Of a stretch of DNA of 21,697 nt, positions 2,913 to 21,697 are shown piece by piece. This DNA is from Patescibacteria group bacterium. Lineage in GTDB: Bacteria > Patescibacteriota > Gracilibacteria > BD1-5 > UBA2023. Each line of letters opens with the position of its first letter. Position 1 is the first letter of the stretch. Where the stretch lies: NCBI GenBank assembly GCA_049315825.1, contig JBMOJK010000017.1, positions 1 through 21,697 on the forward strand, written 5' to 3'. Under the pieces are notes generated by a model, which had not been told where the DNA came from, ran no database searches, and worked only from the letters and a program-made list of their open reading frames with translations. Made by a program: the position numbers and the translations under genes.

Positions 2913-3566
2913 GATGTACCCCTGACCGTAGAGTGTTTTGGGTGAGAATTCTTTGCCGAGTTTTTTGCGCAGTTTTGAGAGGGTGACATTGATGGTATTG
3001 TCACTGATCATCTCGCTGTTCTGTCACCAAGCCTGTGTGATCATCTTTTCTCGACTAATGATACTCCCACGATTCATAAGAAATGTCTCGAACAAAAGAC
3101 TCTCTGTCTTCGTAAGATAGACTTCATGCTCGCCGATGCGAGCTTTTTTTGTGAGCTGATCGAAGATGATATCACCACACTTGATTTCTTTGCTTTCAAC
3201 AAAATTGTTCGGACGTCGGAACATCGCCTTGATGCGAGCAATCAACTCCTCTGGAATGAGGGGTTTGATGATATAGTCGTCTGCTCCGATATCCAGTCCA
3301 TAGATGATATTCTCGCTGTCGCCGTATCCTGACACCATGATGATGGGAACTTGAGACTGGTTATTCTTGCGAAGCCATTTGATGATATCAAATCCACTTC
3401 CGTCGCCGAGCGAGACGTCTACGATATAGAGCTGTGATTCTGCGTTTCCGTTACGCATGAAGTCCTCGTAGCCATAATACGCACTCGCGACGTACCCATT
3501 GCTCTCAAGCTTCTTAATAATTTTGCTTACAAGGAGTTTTTCGTCGTCGATGATTGATATATGCAT
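2904..3566 (-). CDS. OmpR-family response regulator; last gene of the long minus-strand operon
   Basis: Track ORF 3024..3566 continues through TGA (3024-3026) to TAA at 2904-2906. Receiver: MHISIIDDE...YIVDVSLGDGSG...IIMVSG...DYIIKP. Tail: INVTLSKLRKKLGKEF...LYGQGYILE. It overlaps the convergent gene 2184..2912 by 9 nt. Confidence 0.9.
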
Positions 3567-7098: not shown

Positions 7099-9822
7099 TT
7101 AGCATTTTTTCCGGATTGCATCGGTATTTACCCAAGATGGTCGAATGTATGGACTATTGATGATATCTCTGATGGAAGTGCCGTCCATTTCGCGATAATC
7201 GAGGAGTGCCTTGGCATCAATGTGGCGGTATTTGATTAATTCATTAGGATTTTTTCCTAATTCGAGCATTTTTTCTTGAAAATCATTGATCATTGAATTT
7301 ATAGATGTTTCAAAGAAACCTTCAAAAAGTCATTCTAATTGACTTCCGGATTCGCCTGAAAGTATCTTGTCTCCAATCTGTAAGAATGTCAGTATTTCAG
7401 TTACATTCCACTCAAATACATCGTGATTTCGGAAGCTTGCTGCGATGAATCTACGCAAGAATGCTTCGTATTGGAAAAATGTAGTTGCTGCAGCTTCTTC
7501 GATTGGTACTACTACCATGCCATCCTGAACGTGCTCATGGAGTACATCTTCGGACATAAAAGGCGCGATCTCTATGAATGCTGATAGGAAAGTATTGGTC
7601 TTTGGATTATAAATCAATCGAGTACGAACCTTGTCAGGGAACTGCTTTGTGAGCTTGTGGAGTTCTTTGACGCGCGGTATGCCGGTGTATGATGCATGGA
7701 CTCATTCTTCGAGAAATGCTGCCCCTGGTGACGAAAAATTCGCAACAAAAGAGTGAAGATTGTTGTAGAAATCTTCCGATGAAAGATGCGAAGTCGACCG
7801 GATACCCAGCTGAAAATCTGCAAATCTTAAAAGCGGACTCGACGGATTGAATGAAGAAAAATCCGACACATAAATTCGCCCAAAGAACTTGTGAAAAAAT
7901 TTATGAAAGTCTCGTTTAATGAGATCGGTGAGAAGTTTTACGATCTCTCATGCGTGCAGGGTGATGTACTCTTGTGCTGCAGGATGAATATTCTCCATAT
8001 TCTCGTTTGAGAACATGAGTGTGTGGTCGAGGAACATCGAAGACTTTGCAACTGCCTTTGTTGGATCGAGAACCAGATGTTCAAGTGCGTACAGGAGTCG
8101 ACTATATACCGTCGGTATATTTATATTCTTGTAGATGAGAATCGTCTCTTGTACAAAAAGCATGAGTGCTTCGTCCGGAATGTGCTCCGTTTCTGGGAGT
8201 GTCTTGAGCGTATGATAAAGATCAAAATATACCGCATTTCCTACTCCGTATATAATCGTATCAGTGTGGTGCAATGCTTCATAGAGCTCACCCATGAGAG
8301 CTCCAATGCCAGGGCCAAGCTCACGAACAATATGGAGTCGATTTCCTTCTCGTGCACGCATATGAATACCATGTGTTCGGATGAGTTCGGCAATATTCTT
8401 AACGCCTGCAAGCTTCGATGACTCTAGATTTCATCGATCTACTTTCCAGTCGGGATAGATATTGAGTGCAAGGTTTCCGGAGTGATCGTATGCTTTGAGA
8501 ATATCAGGCGACTGATTATTGGGAAAGCTTTGCACGTGATTTCTTCTTTGTGCTTTATCGAGCAGGATGGCAGCCTGTTCTCATACGGATGCTTGAAGGT
8601 CTTGTATGGCAAAATTATACGCATCTGCCTTTTGTATATCAGTATTGCGTTCTTTGAGTCGATGAGCAAGTCTTACTTCGGATTCTGCTGATTCACGTAA
8701 ACTTCGTGCAAATGCGAGAAGTGCAAACGTAAAAAACTCCCGCCCGAGCCCCTTTGGATGATCTTCGCGCGGATCAAAGTGACGCAAAATATTGATGATA
8801 TCCTCGCTGTATCCAGCTACGAGTTTGAGCGTGAGGGGAGAGAGTTTTTCTTGGATTTCTGCTGCGTCTTTTTGGAGATCAAGCTCGAAATGTGGCTGTA
8901 TCGCGAGTATGCGACCGTTGCGTATTCCAGATGCAACAATCCCACCCGTGATGTCATCGGTCATCAGTGGGATGATCGATGGATGCGGACGCTTGTTGGT
9001 CGAAAGATCGATCGTTACAATATGACGTGTACGTGTTTGTGGAACTGAGAGTTTCACTGCTTCTCCTGGTCGACTATTTCCGCTAATTCCGCGGAAAATA
9101 TCCTGATAGATCTTTGGTGCAGTGGTGTCGATTTTGAGAGTAGTTGGAAAATACCCATACTGTGCAGGTCACTGAATTGCCATTGCGATGCGGGGGTCTT
9201 CAGCATTGGCCATTCCAATCAGATTCACTCAAACTTGTTGACTGAAACATATGAACATGTGTCTCACATTTCCTCCTTCGCCCGGTGCAGTTGCTGCGGC
9301 GCGTACACTCTGAGCAAAAGCTCCACGATAGTAGCTCGTTGGCACTTTGTCAGGATCTGATAAGCTTCCCCCAGATATGATGATCCCTTTATCTGGATAA
9401 TCATTCATCTCAGGAGTGGGATCTTCGTAGTTCACTCGCGTAACAGAGACATATTCCTCATATGTTTTTTGATCTCAGAATACGTCTATGAGCGCGCGCT
9501 CCAGCAGATCATTCGTAAAACAGCCGTCTCGTTGAAGTGAAATCGGCAATACACCGTTGTAGAGCTTCTTGAGATGTTCGAGTTCTTGGATGAGATCATG
9601 ACGCGCGAACTCTAGATTGAGATCTGTGCAGTGTCAGAGATTGTCAGGAAGGGGAGTGCCAATAAGTTCTACTTTTCAACTCATTCGTGAGCTTTTTTCC
9701 ACTGCTGCTGATACTGCGCCTTGGATAATAGGCGTCACTAAACCAAGCGTCCCTGCGTATTCCGGATCTGATGAGGGATTGCTTTTTCCGACAAAGGGAA
9801 ATATAGGAGGAACGGTCAGCAT
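7099..9822 (-). CDS. Large (907 aa) multidomain protein of unknown function. The N-terminal region has class-I glutamine-amidotransferase-like motifs, and there is a central GxGxG Rossmann/MTase-like motif.
   Basis: Track ORFs 9229..9435, 8581..9057, 7948..8361, 7330..7617 and 7099..7293 are all in one frame. I walked every gap codon by codon, and the only interruptions are TGA (9676, 9634, 9475, 9229, 9169, 8581, 8431, 7948, 7702, 7330). ATG 9820-9822 directly abuts the TAG (9823-9825) of the upstream kinase; stop TAA 7099-7101. GATase1-like motifs: GIIISGGSLSDPD, HMFICFSQQVGVNLIG (putative nucleophile Cys), AIQPHFE (His-Glu). Later comes HIVRELGPGIGALMGEL. The functional assignment is tentative. 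Confidence 0.8.
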
Positions 9823-12677: not shown

Positions 12678-12829
12678 GGGTTGTAGAGGGGTAACTAAGA
12701 AACTACAAAGAGTGAAGTTCGGATAAGGAAGTAGTGGGGATAGCTCGGTATACTAGGATTCTCTATGTATTATCGTAAGTAACGCATAGAAGTTGTCGAC
12801 CAACTTTTCAATTATCAAGATGGTAATCA

Positions 12830-13552
12830 TTACTTTGTAAAGTATTGCATGACAAGGGGGATTCATATTGAACATAACAAAACACTGCCAAGAAAAAAAT
12901 TTCTTGTAGACCGTCTAAGAGAAACCATTCTCTTATACCCTCCAATATCTATGTCCAAATTGGAGAGGAATAATTTGCGTATGGGTATAAGCAAGACAAG
13001 AATGAGTATAACCCATGCAAAAACTTTTATGAACGGCTCAGGAATGCTACTATTAAGAACAATCAACGGTATTGCTGCTAATATTGGAATGAAAAGATGG
13101 TATCAGCAATGAAGAAGCATGCTCTCTAATACGTCGGCTTTCATTTTTCCAAGCTCGGTTTTCAATTCACTTTCCAGAACTTTCGTTTCCTTTGTACTGC
13201 TGGACTTGATTACATACTTTCCAGAAACTGGATGAAATGAAAACCATAGTGAATCTATAAATCCACTATCAAAAATTACTGTAAGAACCTCATCACGCAG
13301 ATAATCTCAATTTTTCTGAAAGCAACTTATCTTGAGTGCTACTATTCGTTCATCTCATTCGTTATCATATTCAGATAGTTCTCTGAAATCTTCAAATATT
13401 ATCGAATCGTTGTTTTTCAGTGTTGCAATTAGCTGAATACTTGGAAACTTTTTTGAGAGATAATTTGCAAAACTCTTACTTTTGCTTGGATCTATGCTCT
13501 CTTCTGTGATACAAATCGCCATTTTTATCCATTTTGTTGCCTCGTATTGCAT
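12830..13552 (-). CDS. Hypothetical protein with C-terminal transmembrane helices (240 aa)
   Basis: Track ORFs 13355..13552 and 12863..13066 share a frame. They are joined through TGA at 13355, 13307, 13103 and 12863; stop TAA 12830-12832; ATG 13550-13552. The C-terminal third is hydrophobic (HLFIPILAAIPLIVL, FAWVILILVLLIPI). No recognisable domain. Confidence 0.6.
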
Positions 13553-13602
13553 ATTTTAGATGATTTGTTATCTGATGATTAGTGCGGTATTATCTCGTAA
13601 GC

Positions 13603-13932
13603 TTATTGCTTACTTTTGTTGAGGTAAAAATCACTTGTGGTTTCTTTCGCAATAGAGATGAAGGATTGATTTATTTTTCCATAATTTGCCAAAATCTGTG
13701 AACCACCGATTAGTATCGCCACAACAATGAAAACCCAGATCGTAATTTGAACCCAAAATCGCTCCTGTATCCAATAGACATTCTTGGTCAAATAGTTGCC
13801 GATCGCGAGCATGCAGAATACTGAAAGACATACACAGAACCAAAATAGAACCGTAAAAATAGCCCATACTGCAAGTCCTAGAAGTATCATGCCTCAAATT
13901 ACTTTATCTTGCTTACTAAATCGTTTTGCCAT
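13603..13932 (-). CDS. Small integral membrane protein (109 aa)
   Basis: Track ORF 13603..13890 extends upstream through TGA (13894-13896) to ATG 13930-13932, giving MAKRFSKQDKVI[G]GMILLGLAVW.... It has three hydrophobic stretches. Stop TAA 13603-13605. Confidence 0.6.
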
Positions 13933-14079
13933 AGGTTGGTAAAATAAGACTTCTTTTAAGAAGAGTAGTCGCTGTTGTTGAATTGTCCAATACCATGCAC
14001 AAAAAATCCTCGTAGTTTTCGGGGATTTTCGTTTAAAAAGGTCTGAGTAAGCTGTAAAGAAGTGCTCAGTGAATATTCG

Positions 14080-14105
14080 AATAAACGATATTGAGATCGT
14101 TTATT
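14080..14105 (+). terminator. Hairpin with T-rich tail (terminator-like)
   Basis: AATAAACGAT (14080-14089), loop ATTGAG, ATCGTTTATT (14096-14105), followed by TTAGC. The stem is a perfect 10 bp. No clear upstream plus-strand gene, so it may end a small RNA. Confidence 0.35.
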
Positions 14106-14157
14106 TTAGCGAGTTTGAGATATATCATTATGATAATCTGTGCATTTCTGAGTGTAC

Positions 14158-14352
14158 ATGGAGTACTTTAATGTAGCTTCTGTTTACATTACTGAAGTAA
14201 GTAATTCGGAACCAGTGATCCAATATGTATATACTGGAGTTGTTAACGAGTCTGTAGTACTTGATGTCAATTCGTGTTCGACTGGAGATTCGAACCGCGA
14301 GGTAGTCGGTTTTTTGTCTTTGTATTGAGGAAAACAACAAAAAACGACCTAA
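14158..14352 (+). CDS. Possible small ORF (64 aa), function unknown
   Basis: Runs from ATG 14158 to TAA 14350-14352 with one in-frame TGA. It is absent from the track because the TGA shortens it below the cutoff. It ends inside the 14341-14377 hairpin. Composition looks beta-rich and protein-like (VIQYVYTGVVNESVVLDV). No homology recognised. Confidence 0.25.
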
Positions 14353-14377
14353 AGAAATTTAATTCATAGGTCGTTTT
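14341..14377. terminator. Perfect 11-bp inverted repeat with A-run and T-run arms (bidirectional terminator-like)
   Basis: AAAACGACCTA (14341-14351), 15-nt loop, TAGGTCGTTTT (14367-14377). Confidence 0.45.
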
Positions 14378-14612
14378 GGAAAGATTTTCGGGATTTTTTA
14401 TAGCGACTTTGTCGCTTTGGGATCAATTGAATGGTGGTGTTCGTCGGGAGTATTTTGAACACTTGATTTCCACGGTTCAAGAACTCGATTTTGGCTTAAT
14501 GAAGCAATTTGTACGGTATGCCTGGTTTGATCTTGGAGGTTCTGAGAATTTCAAGATCGCACTAACAAAGAAGGAAAGGGTGTGGTATGGGATTGAGGAA
14601 TTAATATGATAA
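14376..14612 (+). CDS. Possible small ORF or gene fragment (78 aa), function unknown
   Basis: Track ORF 14376..14609 (TTG start) reads through TGA 14607 to TAA 14610-14612. It has no ATG near its 5' end and no recognisable domain. It is bracketed by two strong hairpins. Confidence 0.2.
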
Positions 14613-14626
14613 GCACATATCAATAA

Positions 14627-14668
14627 GTTAAAAAATACAAGGAATTACTGATCCTTGTATTTTTTAAC
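14627..14668. terminator. Bidirectional rho-independent terminator (perfect 17-bp stem)
   Basis: GTTAAAAAATACAAGGA (14627-14643), 8-nt loop, TCCTTGTATTTTTTAAC (14652-14668). The A-run and T-run give a U-tail on both strands. It lies 16 nt beyond the TAG (14684) that closes the extended Gre-like frame. Confidence 0.75.
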
Positions 14669-14683
14669 TGTTAGTTTCTGTCT

Positions 14684-15154
14684 CTAGAAAGTTAATCCCA
14701 TCTCAATTGAGATTATTTCCACTTCCACCTCTTTTCAATTTAAATTCATATGAACAATCTCGCCTTCTTCTTTTTATAGTAGGGGGCGTATTAATGGTGC
14801 ATTGTACGATACACGTCATTCAATTGGCGACTGATATCATCCAATGATATATGTTGTATCTTCTCATCCATCAATGGAGATGGTAACCTTTTTTCACATA
14901 CTTACTATCGATTCATCGGAAACAACCCGAACAATTTGAGTTCCGTTCAAGATATCCTGTACTTCTTTTAATTTCTTTGAAGCAAGTTCTCAGGAAAGTC
15001 TTGCTGCATCAAGTGGTGCATTATCGTGCCAAGTTTCTGAAGACTGCTTCAAGGCCTCTCAGGCATCTTTTCCAGCCTCCTTAAATTGCTCTCATAACAA
15101 GGCTTGTTTTTCTTGAAAAGCACTAAATTCATCGGGAAATAGTCGGTATTTCAT
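14684..15154 (-). pseudogene. GreA/GreB/Rnk-family factor interrupted by an in-frame TAA (126-aa product as written; 156 aa if the TAA is read through)
   Basis: ATG 15152-15154. Eight in-frame TGAs in total. The sequence SSETWHDNAPLDAA resembles the Gre GDxSENAEYxAA motif. The C-terminal domain reads VSMGKKVTISIDGGEDTTYIIGGYQSPIEGRVSYNAPLIRPLL, then TAA (14774-14776). The same frame continues as KEEGEIVHMNLNGKEVEVEIISIE, which matches the canonical Gre tail (compare E. coli GreA ...[28 protein letters not shown]), ending at TAG 14684-14686. Confidence 0.7.
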
Positions 15155-15235
15155 AAGTATGTTTATGATAAAGAGATAAAAAAGTTTCCAATGGAAGAAC
15201 AGATTGTGTATTCTGATTTTGAATGCACAAAACTA

Positions 15236-16084
15236 CTATAAACTGACCTGTTTTTTGTTCTTTTTGTACACGAATGTTATAAAACCTTCGATACAGGATC
15301 AATTACCAAAATGACTACAGCTCTCACATAATCACGGAAGATAAACCTGTTCTATATGCTTAACCGTAAATTCTTTATTTGAGGGCGTTTCATAAATAAA
15401 TCGAGTACTGGATGTTCAGGGGGTGTGTATAGTGCTTTTTAATCTAGCATTATAAATTGATAGCAATCTTCTAATAGCTTCCGCTGAATTTGTTTTGTTT
15501 AATAGGTCATCCAATATACGAGTTTCAACTCATTTTGATAAAGCCCAATCAAGGACCTCTTGAACACGTCCTATATCTTCAGTATCGGATAATACACAGT
15601 TTACTCTCACCTTAACGCCCGCTTGTTGCAATGAGGATATATTTTCTTTGGCTTGTATGATTTGTTCAGATGCCCATTCGCGTGACTTTCTTTTTGCCAT
15701 CATTCCTTGTAGGAATTCAGGATTTACGGATTGTAATGAAAAGTTGATAGCATCTACTCAAGCATCAATCAAATTTGAACGAATATCCCCATTAAACTGT
15801 CCATTACTTGTAACTTTTACAACCATCCCCAATTTTTTGGATCATTCTACAATTGAAGAGATGTGTTTATTTAAAGTAGGTTCTCATCCAGTAAGATGTA
15901 ATTCGGTTACGCCAAGTTCATCTCGAAGTCTTGATAATGCAGATTTCAACTCGGAATCCCATTTTAAAATTCCAGCGTCAATATCTCATTCATTGTGACA
16001 AAACTTACAAGACCAATTACAGGACTCTGTAATTTTTAGACGTACTGTTCATACATCTTCTATTTTTGAGAACTTGCTTGTCAT
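15236..16084 (-). CDS. Radical SAM enzyme, MoaA-like (282 aa)
   Basis: This gene is invisible in the standard-code track because it contains nine in-frame TGAs. It runs from ATG 16082-16084 to TAG 15236-15238. Motifs: CxxxCxxC as ITESCNWSCKFCHNEG (15998-16021); LHLTG[TGA]EPTL (TGA at 15884-15886); VTSNG; INFSLQSVNPEF; VKVRVNCVLSD; C-terminal Cys cluster LCESCSHFGNGSC. The order and wording of motifs resemble MoaA (GTP 3',8-cyclase) more than viperin. Confidence 0.82.
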
Positions 16085-16641
16085 TGAGGCGGTTCTTTAA
16101 AACTAATGATAGGCATTTTAATTAAAACAATTGCTGGAATGCCTAATTCCTTTTCATAAACTACTTCGGATCAACCAAATAATCCATCGTCAAAATTGAA
16201 TCCAAGTTTTTCAGTGTAGTTTTTAACGATCTCTGGATCCTGTCCTTCGATTTCTATGTATGGATTGAGTCCAGGCCAGGTGTCGATACATACTTCAATG
16301 TCAGCATTTTTCCAAACTTCACGATAATTCTCCTGTGTTGAAGTATTTCTCAATCCAGTTTTCATTAAGATATCAGAAGCTTCATTAAAATCCGATATCT
16401 CCGTTTCGTGTTCTTCAACTCCATCAATGTTTGAACTATGGATACACTTATAGGTCATAGTGGTTCGTTTAGCCTCCTTTCTCACTCGAAAAAATTCATT
16501 CTTACTGGTTTCTATCGGATGGAATGTTTTTCTTTGTATTAAAAATTCTTCTTGAACACAGGAAAGTCCGATAGAAGCGAGTTTCTCCCGTATAATGTCT
16601 TTGTTCACAGAAGTGAACTTTATTTCAAATTCTTTCGCCAT
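16060..16641 (-). CDS. CYTH-domain protein (CyaB-type class IV adenylate cyclase / triphosphate tunnel metalloenzyme family)
   Basis: Track ORF 16171..16641 begins MAKEFEIKF, which carries the CYTH ExExK signature. Later come RVRKE, TYK and IDTWPGLNPYIEIEG. It reads through TGA at 16171 and 16081 to TAG 16060-16062. The extension (GSEVVYEKELGI) supplies the usual C-terminal sY.ell strand. It overlaps the radical SAM start by 25 nt in a different frame. Confidence 0.8.
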
Positions 16642-16654
16642 AGTCTTTTAATTA

Positions 16655-17206
16655 TTAAGCATATAAAAAAGAGCTTGCCGCCCGCAAAGCTTGCTCAACA
16701 TTGCATTCATCTGTTGAAATAATCAAGTCGTTTCTTCTTAAAAGAAACCTATTCTGTGTTTTCACAAAAAGATTGGCATCTTGTTCAAATCTAGAAAGAT
16801 TTCCTCTTTGCGAGAGTCGTGTAATGATTGTATTTCTGGTGGCTTTAAGAAGAATTTGAACTTTTGGTATCTCCTTATCGAGAGCTTCTGCTTCTGATAC
16901 ATCCAATTGTTCATCCATTGATTGATGATGAACACTTGTTGATGTAACAAGTCGATCACAAATGACATCTGTTCCATTTTTTGCAATTTCTAATATTTGA
17001 GCTATATCTTCACGACAAGCTTCTAGATAAAAATGAAATCTTTCAGTCACTGATACTCAAACCTGATCAAATTTTCTTCTTTGCTCTGGAGTTTTAGTTC
17101 CTGGAGTTTTGTAGTAAATAGCCTTATGATTTTGGGGTAACCCCTTTGCAAGAGTGGTTTTTCAGGCGGCATCGACTCACTCGATCGCTATAATACGTCG
17201 TTGCAT
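16655..17206 (-). CDS. P-loop nucleotide kinase, thymidylate-kinase-like (183 aa)
   Basis: Track ORF 16655..17050 extends upstream through TGA 17057, 17162 and 17177 to ATG 17204-17206. Both Walker A glycines are TGA codons: IIAIE[TGA]VDAA[TGA]KTT. TMK-like motifs FYLEACRED and VICDRLVTSTSVHH are present. Stop TAA 16655-16657. Confidence 0.82.
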
Positions 17207-17396
17207 TTTTTTTTAACAGTGTTAGTTGATAGACTGAACTCAGTTTCTTATTAAATATTGAAGGCATTTCGTCGAGAATCTTGTTTAACTCTCCTTTAAG
17301 TGAGCCTTGAAGGGATTGAATTCTATTTTGTTCTGCCTCAATTTTTAATAACCTATCACGTTGAGCCTTCTAACTCATAGCATTACCAGTCCCCAT
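17207..17396 (-). pseudogene. Coiled-coil gene remnant with an in-frame TAG
   Basis: The frame reads ATG 17396, MGTGNAMS, TAG (17370-17372), then KAQRDRLLKIEAEQNRIQSLQGSLKGELNKILDEMPSIFNKK. No start codon follows the TAG until an internal Met. The frame then runs into the kinase gene out of phase. The 3' boundary is arbitrary. Confidence 0.25.
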
Positions 17397-17494
17397 AGTT
17401 TCTGGCTTTATGAAATAAAAACTATTATCAATAATATATTTTCTATAAAATGTCAAATTATTTTTCTTGGAAGTTTGTTTCAAATGGTTGGCAA

Positions 17495-17539
17495 ATATAA
17501 ATGACAAGCCTAAGAGTTACCCAGACTTGTCATTTATAT
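17495..17539. terminator. Perfect 14-bp inverted repeat hairpin downstream of the ATPase fragment
   Basis: ATATAAATGACAAG (17495-17508), 17-nt loop, CTTGTCATTTATAT (17526-17539). It lies 26 nt beyond the fragment's stop (17565). No clean U-tail. Confidence 0.4.
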
Positions 17540-17564
17540 AATGTAAATTTTTCTCTTAAGATTA

Positions 17565-18104
17565 CTATTTAAGCTCAATCGCATATAAGTAATCCATCAT
17601 TTCCGAAGCAAAATTGATTACATCCTCATTATTGCTTAGAGTAAATGTATGGGATTCTGGATTGAGTGTTTCTCTAAAAGAGTGCATCCTTTGTTTAACA
17701 GCATCTTCGTCAAATATCACATCTATTTTCTCTGATAATTTCAATGTGGAAAGACTTATTCATTTATCTCGAATACGCTTCGCGAAAATAGTTGGTAAGT
17801 ATAAATCTTCAAAAAATTTTCTTAATTCATTCCTGATGTCATCAGTGTGCTCTCTTTGTATAAATCAGTAAATTTTTTCAAAAATTTCCTCATACTGAGA
17901 AGTTGTAAAATCTCTCTCACTTGCATTCAATAGATGGCTTCAATCAGATCTTTTTTCAATCTTAATGAATTTAATTGGAGTAGTTTTTACGATTTCAGAA
18001 AATCTTCGAACAAACAGGGGGTAATGAGTTAAAATTATAGTCTGTTCCACGTCAGGAAGACTTCCACGAAAACAGTTAATGGTATTAGTTATTCTGTTAT
18101 CATC
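17565..18104 (-). pseudogene. C-terminal fragment of an AAA_13/PrrC-RloC-like ABC-type ATPase (N-terminally truncated)
   Basis: The 180-codon frame ends at TAG 17565-17567 and contains three TGAs. It has no plausible start and no Walker A. It reads ...LPDVEQTIILTHYPLFVRRF... (the H-loop TH motif typical of this family), then ...MHSFRETLNPESHTF...DYLYAIELK. Coding character is lost upstream of about 18104. Confidence 0.55.
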
Positions 18105-18736
18105 AAAACTGGTAACTTCAGAAAAAAGCTTGAAGAATTGAAAAAGACCAAGTCGGATGCGGTTCTTTCAGACGTTATTGAGTCAAAGAATATCATCTAT
18201 CGTATTACTTCGAAAGAAAGTAAAAACTACAATCTTTCGATGAGGTTTGATGAGGTTGAAAAAGCAATCGTGAAAAAACTCCAAACTTTCAAGATAGGCG
18301 ATGAAATTTATGAGCAATTCTCCGAGGTTATAATGAAAGAAACAAAAAGAAAAGATACTGAAATCGCTACTGAAAGAAGCGTATTCAGTTATATCTGAAT
18401 AAGCTCAATAGCGATTTAAAGAAGCATATTGATAAATTCGCCGGAGGTATAGGGTTGGATGAAAAAGAAAAGAAGGTTTACTTGGATGGAAAAATGGACA
18501 TTGAGTTTAAAATCGAAGGTGCTGAGAAAGAAATTAAGAATCTGAGACAGACAGAAAGGAATGTGATTTTAGAAGCCCACAGTTTCGCGTATGCCCTTCG
18601 TAATGCGGATAAATACTATAAGAAGGCGACATTTGTTCAAAAGCGAAAAATTGCCTGATTACTCTTCTTGAACATAAAAATAAACCGCGAGAAACGCCTT
18701 CATATAGCGGTTCGTCGCGGTTTAGAATGGACTTAG
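18090..18736 (+). pseudogene. C-terminal half of a large serine recombinase (no catalytic domain; frameshifted)
   Basis: The first frame (track ORF 18138..18398, open from 18090) reads ...IIYRITSKESKNYNLSMRFDEVEKAIVKKLQTF.... Around 18370-18395 the sense switches to another frame (track ORF 18455..18658, extended through TGA to TAG 18734-18736). That frame reads LNKLNSDLKKHIDKFAGGIGLDEKEKKVY...ALRNADKYYKKATFVQKRKIA[G]LLFLNIKINREKRLHI. This matches the coiled-coil and tail pattern of large serine recombinases. There is no resolvase N-terminal domain upstream. Confidence 0.55.
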
Positions 18737-18986
18737 TAATTGATTCCGTCGAAAAATGATCTCAAAACGCCAGAGTCATTGGACAGCAGCTTCTCGATGA
18801 ATTAAAGGACAAGATGGGCATACTTTCATACGGAAAGGAATTTAGAAAATAAATTCTTCAGTGAGGGTAGTGTTTCTGAGCATGCCGCTATGATTATAAT
18901 GGTTCCTCTTGTTTTAACAGTATAAAACTTGTACTCACTCTACATTTTTTTATACTGCACTAGAAGTAATTTTTGATATAGATATC

Positions 18987-20027
18987 ATGGTACTTTCGTT
19001 GCCTGAAAATAATTTTGATGTTGTCATTGATCCACTAATTCGCAAGGCATCTATCACTAGGAAAAGCCTCTATGACTCAGCAAGAAAGCTAAGGATCTGA
19101 GAAAAAGAACTTCTGGACATCCTGAAGATGAGAGCGGAGTGTGTGCTGGAGATTTTGCGCCAGGATTCGTCTCCCAATGCACAGACTCGACTGTCTATTG
19201 GAAAATGACTCCATTGATCCATTGAAGCGCTTCAAAAGGAAATCGCTTCCGATCCTCAACAGACAATCACTATCCGTCCGGATATTATATACAAGTGAAT
19301 GTTTAATGACCTGAGAAGGGTTTGTTCGCTGTGGAATATGGAAGACAAGCATGCTGCTTTGATGTACGAATTTTTGCTCTTTATGGGGCAAATTGGAATG
19401 GTTAGCAGGAGCTCTGCCCAGGTAATGATGGAGGTGCTTGCCAACTCCATCATTAAAAATGGTGTGGTTACACTATTCGTGGCAAATAGCAAATCCATAG
19501 ATCCTGACTCTAGTGTATTAAGGAATAAGCCACAGTATTTTACGAATGAATACTTGAGAAATAAGGTAGAGTCCTTTGTACAATCTCATGATCTTTCGGT
19601 CGAGTATATTTGCCTGCTGCCAGATCTCGATCCGAAATTCCCAATTGAAAGATGCGATGAACTGTGGCAAATGAATCTGGAACAGATCCGGTCCTATACC
19701 TCAGCAAAGTGTGTTCGACTGAGCATGCTTTCAGCATCTGTAGAAGTGGACAGAAAATTTGTCTTACGCACTCTAGAGAAAGAAATTGCCGATTTCACCG
19801 AAAGGCAGTCTACACTTATCGAATTTCATGCTGATGCGGATTTTGCTGCCCATCAAATCGTTAACTATGCTACTGCTGGAATCATTTTCGAGGAGATTTT
19901 TCCTAATGGGATATTGCTCGATATACAGAAACGCTCTTATCCGTTCGAGCAGCCTTACTATTCTCGACTAAGAAAAAATGAGCTTCCCATCGTCTATTGT
20001 GGCCAGAAGGATGGAAATCCGCTATAA
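18987..20027 (+). CDS. Hypothetical protein (346 aa), no domain recognised
   Basis: ATG 18987 is in frame with track ORF 19299..20027 through four TGAs (19095, 19206, 19215, 19296). Stop TAA 20025-20027. The next gene starts 15 nt later. Confidence 0.7.
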
Positions 20028-21010: not shown

Positions 21011-21697
21011 ATGTTTTTCGATACTTCAGAGCATCAGAAGCTTATGTGAAGGACTTCAGTCAAAGAGAAGACGTTGATAATAGAAAAGGAATACAAATCC
21101 ATGCCAGCCTTCATTATAAGTTGTGGAAAGCAGGGCGGATTGCCTTTCGATTACCTCATGACTGATATATACAGTGGATGTTTGCCCGTTAGAAATATTT
21201 GTTACGGGAACTGCTCTGCTGCGACATATTGGATAGACCAGGGCTACGATTTTTGAAAAAGGGTCGAAAATTCATTCGAACCGGAATTATTTGAGGCGGC
21301 TCTAAAAAAATTGCCATCTGACCAGAGATGGTTGCGCCAAGGCTGGGCTTCCGATTTTTCTTACTCTGAACATGCATGGGAGGTTTTGCTGGAAGTCGCA
21401 AAAATGCTCAAAAAGCACGATATACATCTCCTTGTTATCACGAAGCTATTCTATTTGACCAAGCAACGTGAAATACTTGAAGAACTTGCTGAGTTGGGCG
21501 TTGAAATACGTGTATCGCTGGCAGCATCTGATACGCGTATACATCTAAGTAAAAAACTTGCATTTCTAGAAAAATACCGATCGCTCGGAGGTGTTTCGGT
21601 ACCCTATCTCATGACGGCCAAGTATTCGATTCCAGAATTGTCCGCGAATCAGCAGGCGATAGTTGATTGGGTAGTTCAAGGTGATTATATTGCCTGA
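21011..21697 (+). CDS. Hypothetical protein with a CX6CX3C motif, possible Fe-S / TIM-barrel enzyme; 3' partial
   Basis: ATG 21011 lies 4 nt after the peptidase stop (ATG 21101 is an alternative). Track ORFs 21074..21256 and 21311..21697 share the frame and are joined by TGA 21254. The terminal TGA (21695) is also sense, so the gene continues past the window. Cys motif: SGCLPVRNICYGNCSAATYW (21179-21214). Alternating strand/helix-like segments follow (HLLVITK, IRVSLAA). Confidence 0.65.

What the first reader, a model, noticed from the sequence alone, without database searches (positions are those of the whole stretch)
14684..17206. Candidate undescribed nucleotide-modifying cassette: TMK-like kinase, CYTH, MoaA-like radical SAM, Gre/Rnk-like factor
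Four co-directional genes are tightly packed. The gaps are 13 nt, a 25-nt overlap, and 81 nt. A 17-bp bidirectional terminator closes the unit.

Each of the three enzymes belongs to a family that acts on nucleoside phosphates:
- P-loop (d)NMP kinases make higher phosphates.
- MoaA-type radical SAM enzymes rearrange an NTP (GTP 3',8-cyclisation in Moco synthesis).
- CYTH triphosphate-tunnel enzymes cyclise or hydrolyse triphosphates.

No other Moco gene (moaB/C/D/E, mogA, moeA) is in the window, and CPR genomes are not expected to make molybdopterin. A Moco role therefore seems unlikely.

The logic resembles prokaryotic viperin loci, where a radical SAM paired with a nucleotide kinase makes chain-terminating nucleotides. 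Here, though, the radical SAM is MoaA-like and a CYTH enzyme is added. The cassette also sits directly beside decayed mobile and defence debris (a PrrC-like ATPase fragment and a serine recombinase fragment). The fourth gene is a Gre-fold protein. The E. coli Gre-fold protein Rnk is linked to nucleoside diphosphate kinase regulation, and Gre factors reach into the RNAP secondary channel, where NTP analogues act.

My hypothesis is that the cassette makes a modified or cyclic nucleotide used for antiviral defence or signalling.
Basis: inference. Interest (0 to 1): 0.85.

Follow-up and report, generated by a model that had tools for sequence, protein, structure and literature searches.

The report
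Decayed radical-SAM/CYTH/kinase/Gre-factor gene module
This is a broken copy of a rare, undescribed but widely conserved gene module that pairs a MoaA-like radical SAM enzyme and a triphosphate-tunnel enzyme with a nucleotide kinase and a dedicated Gre-type RNA-polymerase factor, which in some bacteria is fused to the radical SAM enzyme.

Summary
The four genes exist on the minus strand under genetic code 25 (TGA=Gly), with the stated spacings and a perfect 18-bp terminator hairpin.

- The radical SAM (rSAM) gene has a 1-nt deletion in a T-run, putting invariant C-terminal residues out of frame.
- The Gre-like gene has an internal TAA.
- A conserved upstream small gene is a remnant.

The association is real. 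Among 27 non-redundant, well-flanked homologous loci, 22 carry CYTH, 14 a Gre-like gene and 11 a thymidylate-kinase-like (TMK-like) kinase. These occur in about ten gene orders across Patescibacteria, Gammaproteobacteria and actinobacteria-like lineages. Independent rSAM–Gre fusion proteins exist, as does a phosphosugar-binding-domain–rSAM fusion.

The rSAM resembles MoaA most closely in sequence and fold. It fails MoaA's defining tests (no Mob_synth_C, R266/R268 or GG motif; an extra invariant Cys) and also fails viperin thresholds. No Moco genes co-occur.

Best reading: an NTP-modifying pathway physically coupled to the RNA polymerase secondary channel. An antiviral role is unsupported, because flanking genes are mostly housekeeping. 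No description was found in the literature searched. The module is interesting; this copy is probably inactive.

The parts
17495..17539 (.). Upstream hairpin (17-nt arms, 94% complementary, 11-nt loop) between the PDC-S06-like fragment and the cassette. It is the likely terminator of the preceding gene and marks the 5' boundary of the unit.
   Evidence: I5
17253..17396 (-). Remnant of a small upstream gene (128 aa in L001). It starts MGTGNAMS, then has an in-frame TAG. Only residues 1-48 are still recognisable. This gene is conserved only in the code-25 clade and its function is unknown.
   Evidence: no Pfam hit for the intact L001 homologue
16655..17206 (-). TMK-family P-loop NMP kinase, 183 aa, intact, with 3 in-frame TGA=Gly. 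The P-loop, the (C)DR motif and the lid arginines are invariant in the family.
   Evidence: Pfam PF02223 43.4 bits (cut-off 27); TIGR00041 52.5 bits, below its 83.25 cut-off; PADLOC PDC-M51B 2e-18 and VakA 8e-11; family profile vs PDB thymidylate kinases 3.6e-14; 61% identical to L001
16060..16641 (-). CYTH / triphosphate-tunnel metalloenzyme, 193 aa, intact. The full catalytic set is invariant in the family: ExExK, R52/R54, R107, D120, ExE.
   Evidence: Pfam PF01928 46.7 bits (cut-off 23.2); TIGR00318 cyaB 55.0 bits, just below 57.95; family profile vs PDB: Saci_0718 TTM 2e-22, CyaB 1e-8; 67% identical to L001
15236..16084 (-). Radical SAM gene as it now reads (282 aa). It has CX3CX2C, GGEP, and the C-terminal C253-x2-C256-x7-C264, then terminates prematurely. 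It overlaps the CYTH stop by 25 nt.
   Evidence: Pfam PF04055 75.3 bits; nearest NCBIfam moaA_archaeal 104.5 bits (cut-off 325); 60% identical to L001
15279..15286 (-). Frameshift site. The window has GGTTTT|AT where homologues encode G-F-Y, so one T is missing from the run.
15123..15284 (-). Out-of-frame C-terminal tail of the rSAM (~52 codons, 71% identical to L001). It carries the family-invariant Y269, R272, C287 and F302 and overlaps the Gre-like start by ~32 nt.
14684..15154 (-). Gre-family factor (type 2, tip motif SSETWHDNAP). It is 156 codons long if read through, but is interrupted by TAA at 14774-14776 (Gly in L001 and L013). The 27 downstream codons are still conserved.
   Evidence: Pfam PF01272 45.8 bits (cut-off 26.9) on the read-through sequence; family profile vs GreA 1e-9, GreB and Gfh1; 69% identical to L001
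14626..14669 (.). Perfect 18-bp hairpin with an 8-nt loop, with A6/T6 runs inside the stem ends. It is a bidirectional intrinsic-terminator-like element that closes the unit.
   Evidence: I2

Best explanation
The region is a decaying copy of a rare, conserved, so far undescribed gene module.

Shown:
- The core is a radical SAM enzyme that is the sister of MoaA in sequence and fold but is not MoaA, together with a catalytically complete CYTH triphosphate-tunnel enzyme.
- Recurrent partners are a TMK-family nucleotide kinase, a dedicated Gre-family factor with a non-canonical but strongly conserved coiled-coil tip, and often a SAM methyltransferase.
- In several lineages the Gre-like factor is fused to the C-terminus of the rSAM.
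- In another lineage a SorC-type phosphosugar-binding domain is fused to the rSAM N-terminus.

Inferred mechanism:
- The kinase raises a nucleoside monophosphate towards the triphosphate.
- The rSAM performs a radical modification of that nucleoside triphosphate, with MoaA, viperin and AbmM as precedents.
- The CYTH enzyme then processes the triphosphate, by hydrolysis or cyclisation.
- The Gre-like module docks the enzyme or its product at the RNA polymerase secondary channel, which is the NTP entry route.
- The output is therefore control of transcription, through inhibition, rescue or altered substrate supply.
- Whether the physiological role is regulation or conflict is open.

In this window the module is most likely inactive. 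The rSAM is frameshifted before invariant residues, the Gre-like gene has a premature TAA, and the upstream small gene is a remnant.
For: Conservation:
- The rSAM's close homologues sit next to kinase, CYTH and Gre genes in code-25 relatives with the same order.
- In standard-code organisms with only 33-38% rSAM identity the same genes occur in different orders and orientations.
- Of 27 non-redundant loci with at least 2.5 kb on both flanks, 22 have CYTH, 14 Gre, 11 kinase, 9 all three, and 25 at least one.

Fusions:
- P0044, P0109 and P0164 are rSAM-Gre fusions and P0070 is a Sugar-bind-rSAM fusion.
- P0044 is a genuine standard-code ORF flanked by a kinase and a CYTH gene. P0109 is followed by a TMK-like kinase.
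- Both halves of P0044 are homologous to the window proteins, at 1e-37 and 3e-14.

Fold and sequence:
- The AF2 model of the rSAM (pLDDT 88.7) best matches MoaA, with TM 0.63-0.65 and E=8e-14. Most other top hits act on nucleotides or nucleotide-linked substrates (viperins, AbmM, BlsE, DesII).
- The family profile matches MoaA at 6e-23.
- The CYTH catalytic residues are invariant.
- The kinase P-loop, DR motif and lid are invariant.
- The Gre profile aligns over both domains to GreA, GreB and Gfh1.
- The two tip motifs are conserved across distant rSAM clades.

Accessory genes are nucleotide-centred: methyltransferases, HD, NT5C, NUDIX and a SorC sugar-phosphate domain.

Lesions.
Against: - No biochemical datum exists. 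The substrate, the product and RNAP binding are all inferred.
- The largest clade has only rSAM plus CYTH, with no Gre or kinase nearby (11 of 27 loci). Coupling to RNAP therefore cannot be universal, unless the partner is encoded elsewhere in those genomes.
- The MoaA guanine-binding pair R266/R268 and the open-site three-Cys AUX arrangement are not conserved. This weakens the inference of a GTP, or even an NTP, substrate.
- The second-best structural neighbour, SuiB, is a peptide-modifying enzyme.
- In HMM alignment the type-1 Gre tips lack equivalents of the catalytic D41/E44 of GreA. A classical transcript-cleavage role is doubtful.
- The lesions could in principle include a homopolymer sequencing error. 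A -1 slip on the T-run could restore some full-length rSAM.
- Partner detection used small in-house HMMs, and loci were retrieved by motif patterns, so the percentages are approximate.
Confidence: 0.5

Rival explanations
1. Protein-modification system. The rSAM, helped by CYTH, the kinase and the methyltransferase, post-translationally modifies a residue in the conserved tip of the Gre-like factor (M-x-S-R-Y-D or S-E-T-W-H-D-N). This would parallel how diphthamide (Dph2 rSAM plus methyltransferase plus ATP-dependent step) or EF-P beta-lysylation (EpmB rSAM) decorates the tip of a factor that reaches into a catalytic centre.
For: - rSAM-Gre fusions, and the tight overlap of the rSAM 3' end with the Gre start, fit an enzyme-substrate pair.
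- The tip motifs are the most conserved part of the Gre-like proteins and contain Tyr/Trp/His/Arg.
- The rSAM has four invariant C-terminal Cys, like fully ligated twitch/SPASM auxiliary clusters typical of peptide-modifying rSAMs. SuiB is the second-best fold match.
- The analogy to diphthamide and EF-P rests on established knowledge, not on a test made here.
Against: - The rSAM-CYTH pair occurs without any Gre gene in the largest clade.
- The fusion of a SorC phosphosugar-binding domain to the rSAM, and the CYTH, kinase, HD, NT5C and NUDIX partners, point to a small phosphorylated ligand.
- MoaA, a small-molecule enzyme, is by far the best sequence and fold match.
Confidence: 0.15
2. Viperin-like antiviral defence. 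The rSAM plus kinase make a chain-terminating or toxic nucleotide analogue during infection. The Gre-like factor is a self-immunity device that lets host RNAP excise the analogue, or it acts as a sensor guarding RNAP.
For: - The kinase matches PADLOC candidate-defence PDC-M51B (down to 2.5e-24) and the viperin-associated kinase VakA.
- rSAM plus TMK-family kinase is the viperin/CMPK2 arrangement (established knowledge).
- The distribution is rare and phyletically patchy: about 196 clusters at 50% identity among 1.84 billion representatives.
- The window copy lies in a low-GC island next to a PDC-S06-like fragment.
Against: - The rSAM scores far below viperin thresholds (67.5 vs 180 bits), and its PADLOC pVip matches cover only the generic N-terminal half.
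- CYTH and Gre match no PADLOC model.
- Flanks of homologous modules are mostly housekeeping: LysRS, PNPase, asparaginase, DnaK.
- The Saccharibacteria loci are syntenic across genomes.
- Fusing an immunity factor to the toxin-producing enzyme is not an obvious design.
- No paper in the library links Gre factors with ddhCTP.
Confidence: 0.15
3. Ordinary small-molecule or cofactor biosynthesis unrelated to RNA polymerase. The Gre-fold protein has been recruited as a structural or chaperone subunit of the rSAM enzyme.
For: - There is stable, syntenic housekeeping context in Saccharibacteria, and methyltransferase partners typical of biosynthetic pathways.
- The Gre-like tips do not keep the canonical catalytic acidic pair.
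Against: - Both domains of the Gre fold are retained, and the profile matches GreA, GreB and Gfh1 over full length.
- Two different Gre tip types have been kept with the rSAM in distant clades and fused independently. This is hard to explain without the family's one known function, docking in the secondary channel.
Confidence: 0.12
4. Bona fide MoaA, catalysing the first step of molybdenum cofactor synthesis.
For: MoaA is the best NCBIfam, PDB-sequence and Foldseek match. The R17-equivalent arginine is invariant.
Against: - The score is 104.5 bits against a cut-off of 325.
- There is no Mob_synth_C domain, whereas true MoaA hits have it.
- There is no R266-x-R268 after the CxxC, an extra invariant Cys is present, and there is no C-terminal GG.
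- No Moco gene appears among the recurrent neighbours in 80 locus clusters.
- The family forms a branch separate from MoaA.
Confidence: 0.02

Closest known systems
MoaA (GTP 3',8-cyclase, Moco biosynthesis)
   Same: - It is the best match by NCBIfam, PDB sequence profile (6e-23) and predicted fold (TM 0.63-0.65) over the whole length.
- It has the CX3CX2C radical SAM cluster and a C-terminal Cys-rich auxiliary-cluster region beginning with CxxC.
- The R17-equivalent arginine, TxNG, NxS and the (K/R)xN and R192-equivalent positions are conserved.
   Different: - It scores far below the family cut-offs and has no Mob_synth_C domain.
- An 8-11 residue insert with an extra invariant Cys follows the CxxC, replacing the R266-x-R268 guanine-binding pair.
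- It has four rather than three invariant C-terminal Cys and no GG tail.
- It is never found next to moaC/D/E. It pairs with CYTH, Gre and a kinase instead.
Prokaryotic viperins with associated kinases (pVip/VakA; vertebrate RSAD2-CMPK2) and PADLOC candidate PDC-M51
   Same: - An rSAM acting (by inference) on an NTP is paired with a TMK-family kinase.
- The kinase matches VakA and, better, PDC-M51B.
- Viperins are among the fold neighbours.
   Different: - The rSAM is not a viperin (67.5 vs 180 bits) and only grazes PDC-M51A (E=6e-4).
- It has an auxiliary-cluster domain, which viperins lack.
- The CYTH and Gre-family partners and the rSAM-Gre fusions have no counterpart in those systems.
Secondary-channel factors GreA/GreB, Gfh1, Rnk, DksA
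   Same: The partner protein has the Gre architecture, with an N-terminal coiled coil and a GreA_GreB C-terminal domain, and aligns over full length to GreA and Gfh1. By analogy with DksA-ppGpp, from established knowledge, it could couple a nucleotide to RNAP.
   Different: - It is far below the greA family cut-off (30.8 vs 139 bits).
- The tip motif GDLxENAEY is replaced by M(Q/E)SRYD(T/S) or SSETWHDNAP.
- It can be fused to a radical SAM enzyme.
CYTH/TTM enzymes (archaeal Saci_0718 triphosphatase; CyaB class IV adenylate cyclase)
   Same: It passes the Pfam CYTH threshold, all tunnel catalytic residues are invariant, and the best solved relative is Saci_0718 (2e-22).
   Different: - It is just below the cyaB equivalog cut-off (55.0 vs 57.95), and the CyaB structures match more weakly (1e-8).
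- Whether it hydrolyses or cyclises cannot be told from sequence.
- Obligate pairing with an rSAM was not found described in the literature searched.
OxsA/OxsB (oxetanocin A): an rSAM plus a phosphohydrolase acting on deoxyadenosine phosphates
   Same: Same logic from established knowledge: a radical SAM enzyme remodels a phosphorylated nucleoside while a phosphohydrolase trims the phosphates. HD, NT5C and NUDIX genes occur beside some modules.
   Different: The families differ (OxsB is B12-dependent and OxsA is an HD protein), and there is no Gre or CYTH component. The resemblance is recalled from knowledge and was not tested here.

Membership tests
MoaA (GTP 3',8-cyclase) | Score at or above the curated family cut-off (TIGR02668, TIGR02666, NF001199) | tested here: not met
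   104.5 vs 325, 86.7 vs 284, and 89.8 vs 231 bits
MoaA (GTP 3',8-cyclase) | C-terminal Mob_synth_C domain (PF06463) | tested here: not met
   Absent in the window protein and in P0001-P0031. Present in the true MoaA hits P0033-P0040.
MoaA (GTP 3',8-cyclase) | N-terminal CX3CX2C radical SAM cluster and the R17-equivalent arginine | tested here: met
   C22/C26/C29 and R15 are invariant. R15 aligns to R17 of 1tv7.
MoaA (GTP 3',8-cyclase) | AUX cluster held by exactly three Cys (CX2CX13C) with an open site for guanine N1, and strictly conserved R266 and R268 directly after the CxxC (PMC9026282) | tested here: not met
   The family has C-x2-C-x7-C...C, four invariant Cys, with an insert in place of T-R-A-R. 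Only one later invariant Arg (R272) could correspond.
MoaA (GTP 3',8-cyclase) | C-terminal GG motif (bacterial and eukaryotic MoaA) | tested here: not met
   C-termini are variable and lack GG. The motif is also absent in archaeal MoaA, so this carries less weight.
MoaA (GTP 3',8-cyclase) | Genomic association with moaC/moaD/moaE/moaB | tested here: not met
   None in the window. Recurrent neighbours in 80 locus clusters are CYTH, Gre, kinase, methyltransferase and regulators, not Moco genes. Whole-genome co-occurrence was not tested.
Prokaryotic viperin (pVip) | Score at or above NF038283 cut-off, with full-length match including the NTP-binding C-terminal domain | tested here: not met
   67.5 vs 180 bits. 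The NCBIfam and PADLOC pVip matches cover only residues ~14-168, the generic rSAM core.
PADLOC PDC-M51 (candidate defence, two genes) | Both the A and B components match | tested here: not met
   B (the kinase) matches at 2e-18 to 2.5e-24. A matches only one standard-code rSAM, at E=6e-4 over ~90 residues, and the window rSAM not at all.
CYTH / triphosphate tunnel metalloenzyme | Pfam PF01928 above cut-off, with the ExExK motif and the tunnel Arg/Glu residues | tested here: met
   46.7 vs 23.2 bits. E4, E6, R52, R54, R107, D120, E130 and E132 are invariant.
CyaB class IV adenylate cyclase | TIGR00318 equivalog cut-off | tested here: not met
   55.0 vs 57.95 bits, a marginal miss. Solved CyaB structures match less well than archaeal TTM triphosphatases. 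Cyclase versus hydrolase activity is not decidable by sequence.
Thymidylate kinase family (fold) | Pfam PF02223 above cut-off, with P-loop, DR motif and lid arginines | tested here: met
   43.4 vs 27 bits. Invariant G10/K16, C83-D-R85, R130 and R134. TMK structures match at 3.6e-14.
Housekeeping dTMP kinase (Tmk equivalog) | TIGR00041 cut-off | tested here: not met
   52.5 vs 83.25 bits
GreA/GreB family (fold) | GreA_GreB C-terminal domain (PF01272) plus an N-terminal coiled coil | tested here: met
   45.8 vs 26.9 bits on the read-through sequence, and 6 of 7 family members match. The profile aligns to GreA residues 43-155 and to Gfh1 residues 16-154.
GreA (transcript-cleavage factor proper) | TIGR01462 cut-off, and the catalytic acidic pair D41/E44 at the coiled-coil tip | tested here: not met
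   30.8 vs 139 bits. The tips read M(Q/E)SRYD or SSETWHDNAP instead of GDLxENAEY. The type-2 tip keeps an Asp at the E44-equivalent position only.
GreA/GreB family (function) | Binding in the RNAP secondary channel | not testable with these tools
   Requires pull-down, cryo-EM or complex modelling.

The most novel reading that the evidence does not exclude
A radical SAM enzyme that works at the mouth of the RNA polymerase secondary channel. It would be tethered there by a dedicated Gre-family module, either as an operon partner or as a covalent fusion. From that position it would do one of three things: feed a radical-modified nucleotide straight into the polymerase active site, chemically modify the tip of the factor, or modify the extruded 3' end of the nascent RNA. 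This would be a new class of transcription-control or conflict system with no described precedent.
Probability: 0.3. Interest if true: 0.9.

Novelty: new variant of a known kind. Interest (0 to 1): 0.72.

Why it matters
If the module works as inferred, it would extend radical-SAM nucleotide chemistry, so far known from MoaA, viperin and nucleoside antibiotics, to a new enzyme family. It would also link that chemistry physically to RNA polymerase through a specialised Gre-type factor. No link between radical SAM enzymes and secondary-channel factors was found in the literature searched.

It gives an immediately testable set of intact, standard-code orthologues for biochemistry. It also assigns a context to about 200 orphan 'radical SAM protein / MoaA-like' clusters that are currently mis-annotated or unannotated. 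These include members in Saccharibacteria and Gracilibacteria, which are not expected to make Moco.

For this particular window the practical message is narrower. The cassette is a pseudogenised remnant in a low-GC island of a code-25 genome.

Tried and rejected
- **Table-11 ORF calling** fragments every gene. I replaced it with code-25 calling.
- **Code 4 (TGA=Trp)** was rejected because TGA falls on invariant Gly positions.
- **Moco role** was rejected; see the membership tests.
- **Phage origin:** tblastn of a family rSAM against 50,697 phage records gave only generic N-terminal rSAM hits below 28% identity.
- **tRNA or att-site boundaries of the island:** none found.
- **Rfam elements in 12-19.5 kb:** none.
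- **'Serine recombinase fragment':** no Pfam or NCBIfam support for any ORF in 17.5-19 kb on either strand.
- **Apparent duplicated TruD+CYTH pairs flanking the L025 module:** there is no DNA similarity, so this is not a repeat.
- **Look-up of the Actinomadura homologue P0011:** not on record.
- **Literature searches** found nothing relevant for rSAM+CYTH+GreA+TMK, PDC-M51, MoaA-like with anti-phage, ddhCTP with Gre, GreA_GreB with radical SAM fusion, or PDB entry 8WM2.
- **Batch PADLOC scan of all 161 flanking ORFs** was abandoned. The set exceeded the size limit and was contaminated by spurious antisense ORFs from high-GC loci. I replaced it with Pfam on eight immediate neighbours.
- **Programmed -1 frameshifting at the T-run** was considered. 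tRNA-Phe could re-pair, but homologues need no shift, so mutation or homopolymer error is the simpler reading.

Full report
**1. What is in the sequence**

Under table 11 the region is a field of short ORFs. Reading TGA as sense gives long ORFs across the whole window, including proteins of 869 and 907 aa. In the region of interest TGA falls on invariant glycines: the P-loop IE-G-VDAA-G-KT and the radical SAM LT-G-G-EP. The code is therefore 25, not 4.

All four genes are on the minus strand:
- kinase, 17206..16655 (183 aa)
- CYTH, 16641..16060 (193 aa)
- radical SAM (rSAM), 16084..15236 (282 aa as it reads)
- Gre-like, 15154..14684

A perfect 18-bp hairpin sits at 14626-14669, and a second hairpin (17495-17539) lies upstream of the unit.

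**2. This copy is damaged**

The closest homologous loci (L001-L006, L013) are also code-25 organisms, with 14-26 in-frame TGAs per gene. Their rSAM is 334 aa, and its last ~50 residues match a different frame in the window.

- **rSAM frameshift.** DNA alignment shows one T missing from a T-run at 15279-15286. The family alignment places invariant Y269, R272, C287 and F302 after this point, so the truncated product lacks conserved residues of the auxiliary-cluster region.
- **Gre nonsense codon.** The Gre-like ORF has TAA at 14774-14776 where L001 and L013 have Gly.
- **Upstream remnant.** A small upstream gene (128 aa in L001) is reduced to a remnant with a TAG after codon 8.

The large housekeeping ORFs elsewhere in the window are intact. 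Three lesions within 2.7 kb therefore argue for real decay rather than poor sequence. A homopolymer error at the T-run cannot be excluded.

The cassette lies in a low-GC stretch (0.32-0.36 against about 0.44). This stretch sits between two-component, SLH-esterase and LD-carboxypeptidase genes and next to a C-terminal fragment of a PADLOC PDC-S06-like protein.

**3. Family assignments**

*Kinase.* Pfam Thymidylate_kin is above threshold, but the protein is below the dTMP-kinase equivalog cut-off. The family profile hits TMK structures at 3.6e-14, and the P-loop, (C)DR motif and lid arginines are invariant.

*CYTH.* Pfam is above threshold, the cyaB model misses marginally (55.0 vs 57.95 bits), and all tunnel residues are invariant. 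The best solved relative is the archaeal triphosphatase Saci_0718 at 2e-22, ahead of CyaB cyclases at 1e-8.

*rSAM.* The nearest curated model is archaeal MoaA, at 104.5 bits against a cut-off of 325; viperin scores 67.5 against 180.
- The family profile hits MoaA 1tv7 at 6e-23.
- An AF2 model of the standard-code member P0005 (pLDDT 88.7) matches MoaA best, with TM 0.63-0.65 and E=8e-14. This is about five orders of magnitude ahead of SuiB, BlsE, viperins, DesII and AbmM.
- The family nevertheless fails MoaA's defining features as listed in PMC9026282. It has no Mob_synth_C domain, no R266-x-R268 after the CxxC, an insert with an extra invariant Cys giving four C-terminal Cys, and no GG tail.

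*Gre-like.* With the TAA read through, it passes Pfam GreA_GreB C-terminal (45.8 vs 26.9 bits). The family profile aligns over both domains to GreA (1e-9), GreB and Gfh1. It is a full-length Gre-type factor, not the short Rnk type.

**4. The association is conserved**

Homologues of the rSAM with only 33-38% identity, in standard-code organisms, sit beside the same three partners in rearranged orders:
- L010: kinase and Gre on one strand, rSAM and CYTH divergent on the other.
- L014: the same four genes plus a methyltransferase.

Scans of the genome and metagenome collections gave 130 further loci. In-house HMMs applied to these and the earlier loci recognised 109 family loci, which fall into 80 clusters at 90% identity. 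Of the 27 clusters with at least 2.5 kb on both flanks:
- 22 carry CYTH, 14 a Gre-like gene and 11 the kinase.
- 9 carry all three and only 2 carry none.
- About ten different architectures occur.

A rough NJ tree separates the family from true MoaA. It shows a large 'rSAM then CYTH' clade (Saccharibacteria, actinobacteria such as Actinomadura and Phytohabitans, and soil metagenomes) and several clades with Gre and kinase, with or without CYTH. The window's code-25 clade is one of these.

Other recurrent partners are:
- a class I methyltransferase (8 loci) and a TylF-type methyltransferase
- HD, NT5C and NUDIX hydrolases
- in CYTH-less loci, a SorC-type phosphosugar-binding protein

No Moco gene recurs.

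An exhaustive profile search found only about 196 clusters at 50% identity with E<=1e-30 among 1.84 billion representatives. The family is rare.

**5. Fusions**

Among those representatives:
- P0044, P0109 and P0164 are rSAM-Gre fusion proteins.
- P0070 is a Sugar-bind-rSAM fusion.
- P0181 is an rSAM-TPR fusion.

P0044 is a genuine standard-code ORF. Its contig was seen in four samples, and it is flanked by a P-loop kinase and a CYTH gene. A Crp-like cNMP-binding regulator, NUDIX, ASCH and further kinases lie nearby. P0109 is followed by a TMK-like kinase. Both halves of P0044 are homologous to the window's rSAM (1e-37) and Gre-like protein (3e-14).

In the code-25 clade the Gre start overlaps the rSAM 3' end by about 70 nt in another frame.

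**6. Gre tips**

The cassette-linked Gre factors fall into two types with strongly conserved, non-canonical tips:
- Type 1: M(Q/E)SRYD(T/S).
- Type 2: SSETWHDNAP, found in the window, L001, L013, L090, L132 and the P0044 fusion.

Housekeeping GreA copies in the same loci keep GDLxENAEY. Both types occur fused to the rSAM. The catalytic D41/E44 pair of GreA is not retained in type 1 and only partly in type 2.

**7. Defence context**

- The kinases match the PADLOC candidate PDC-M51B and VakA.
- The rSAMs only graze PDC-M51A.
- CYTH and Gre match nothing.
- Known phages carry no family member.
- Immediate flanks of homologous modules are mostly housekeeping (LysRS, PNPase, asparaginase).
- One locus has a CARF-sigma54 activator directly upstream and one has a Crp-like regulator.

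The defence hypothesis is therefore weakly supported. A signalling or regulatory role is equally compatible with the data.

**8. Mechanism (inference)**

The nearest fold relatives, the kinase, the triphosphate-tunnel enzyme, the phosphosugar-binding fusion and the phosphohydrolase neighbours together point to a phosphorylated ribose-containing small molecule as substrate, most simply an NTP. The independent fusions to two Gre types point to physical coupling with the one known target of that fold, the RNAP secondary channel.

I therefore propose this pathway: kinase, then rSAM modification of an NTP, then CYTH processing of the triphosphate, with the Gre-like module docking enzyme or product at RNAP.

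The main rival is that the Gre tip itself is the rSAM substrate, by analogy with diphthamide and EF-P. That rival is weakened by the Gre-less rSAM-CYTH clade and by the phosphosugar-domain fusion.

**9. Novelty and caveats**

Eight text searches of the paper library found no description of this association.

Caveats:
- Partner detection relied on small in-house HMMs.
- Loci were retrieved through two conserved peptide patterns and capped at 80 per scan.
- Some 'Gre' hits within 3 kb are housekeeping GreA (for example in L117).
- The tree is distance-based.
- Nothing about substrate, product or RNAP binding has been tested.

Noticed in passing
window 1-21697: The whole window uses genetic code 25 (TGA=Gly). 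Large ORFs (721, 869, 907 and 375 aa) appear only when TGA is read through. This is typical of Gracilibacteria and Absconditabacteria.
   Followed up: yes
window 17565-18140 (-): A C-terminal fragment (about 190 aa) of a protein matches PADLOC candidate single-gene defence system PDC-S06, at model positions 598-778 of 784 with E=1e-39. The N-terminal three quarters are missing. No Pfam or NCBIfam family matches it.
   Followed up: partly
window ~12700-19000: A low-GC stretch (0.32-0.36 vs ~0.44) contains the cassette, two small membrane-protein ORFs (12830-13552 and 13603-13932) and gene fragments. It is flanked by housekeeping genes. No tRNA gene or att-like repeats mark its ends.
   Followed up: partly
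window 7099-9822 (-): A 907-aa ORF has no Pfam match at all. It is embedded among histidine-kinase and response-regulator genes (assigned by inspection of their sequences).
   Followed up: no
window 21011-21697 (+): An ORF that runs off the window end shows weak similarity to PA0069-family and TatD-associated radical SAM proteins (E=3e-4). It is a possible second, unrelated rSAM-like gene.
   Followed up: no
L001 8932-9005; L013 ~2993-3066; window 15123-15154: In the code-25 clade the Gre-like start codon lies ~30-75 nt inside the 3' end of the rSAM ORF, in another frame. In other lineages the two are fused in one ORF. This raises the possibility of translational coupling or frameshift-generated fusion protein.
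   Followed up: no
L001 8932-9390 (also L002-L006): The Gre-like gene was not called by the source annotation in any of these loci, leaving a 570-nt 'empty' gap after the rSAM. Annotation pipelines miss it, probably because of the overlap and the recoding.
   Followed up: yes
L108 1151-3007: A CARF (Cas_NE0113) plus sigma54-interaction AAA+ regulator lies directly upstream of a kinase-rSAM-Gre module. This is a nucleotide-sensing transcription activator next to the module.
   Followed up: no
L145 199-8131: The rSAM-Gre fusion locus is surrounded by a response regulator, a Crp-like cNMP-binding regulator, NUDIX, ASCH and at least three further small P-loop kinases. This is a dense nucleotide-metabolism neighbourhood.
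   Followed up: no
L018-L022, L028 (Saccharibacteria): The rSAM-CYTH pair is syntenic across several Saccharibacteria genomes, preceded by a DUF2238 membrane protein and a TylF-type O-methyltransferase. An ADP-ribosylglycohydrolase lies nearby in L018, and a gene recognisable by inspection as DnaK in L022. The context looks stable and housekeeping, not like a mobile island.
   Followed up: partly
L001 9577-14403: Downstream of the module in the closest relatives lie a 997-aa protein that was never scanned against Pfam and a 602-aa beta-CASP/metallo-beta-lactamase protein. Both are absent from the window.
   Followed up: no
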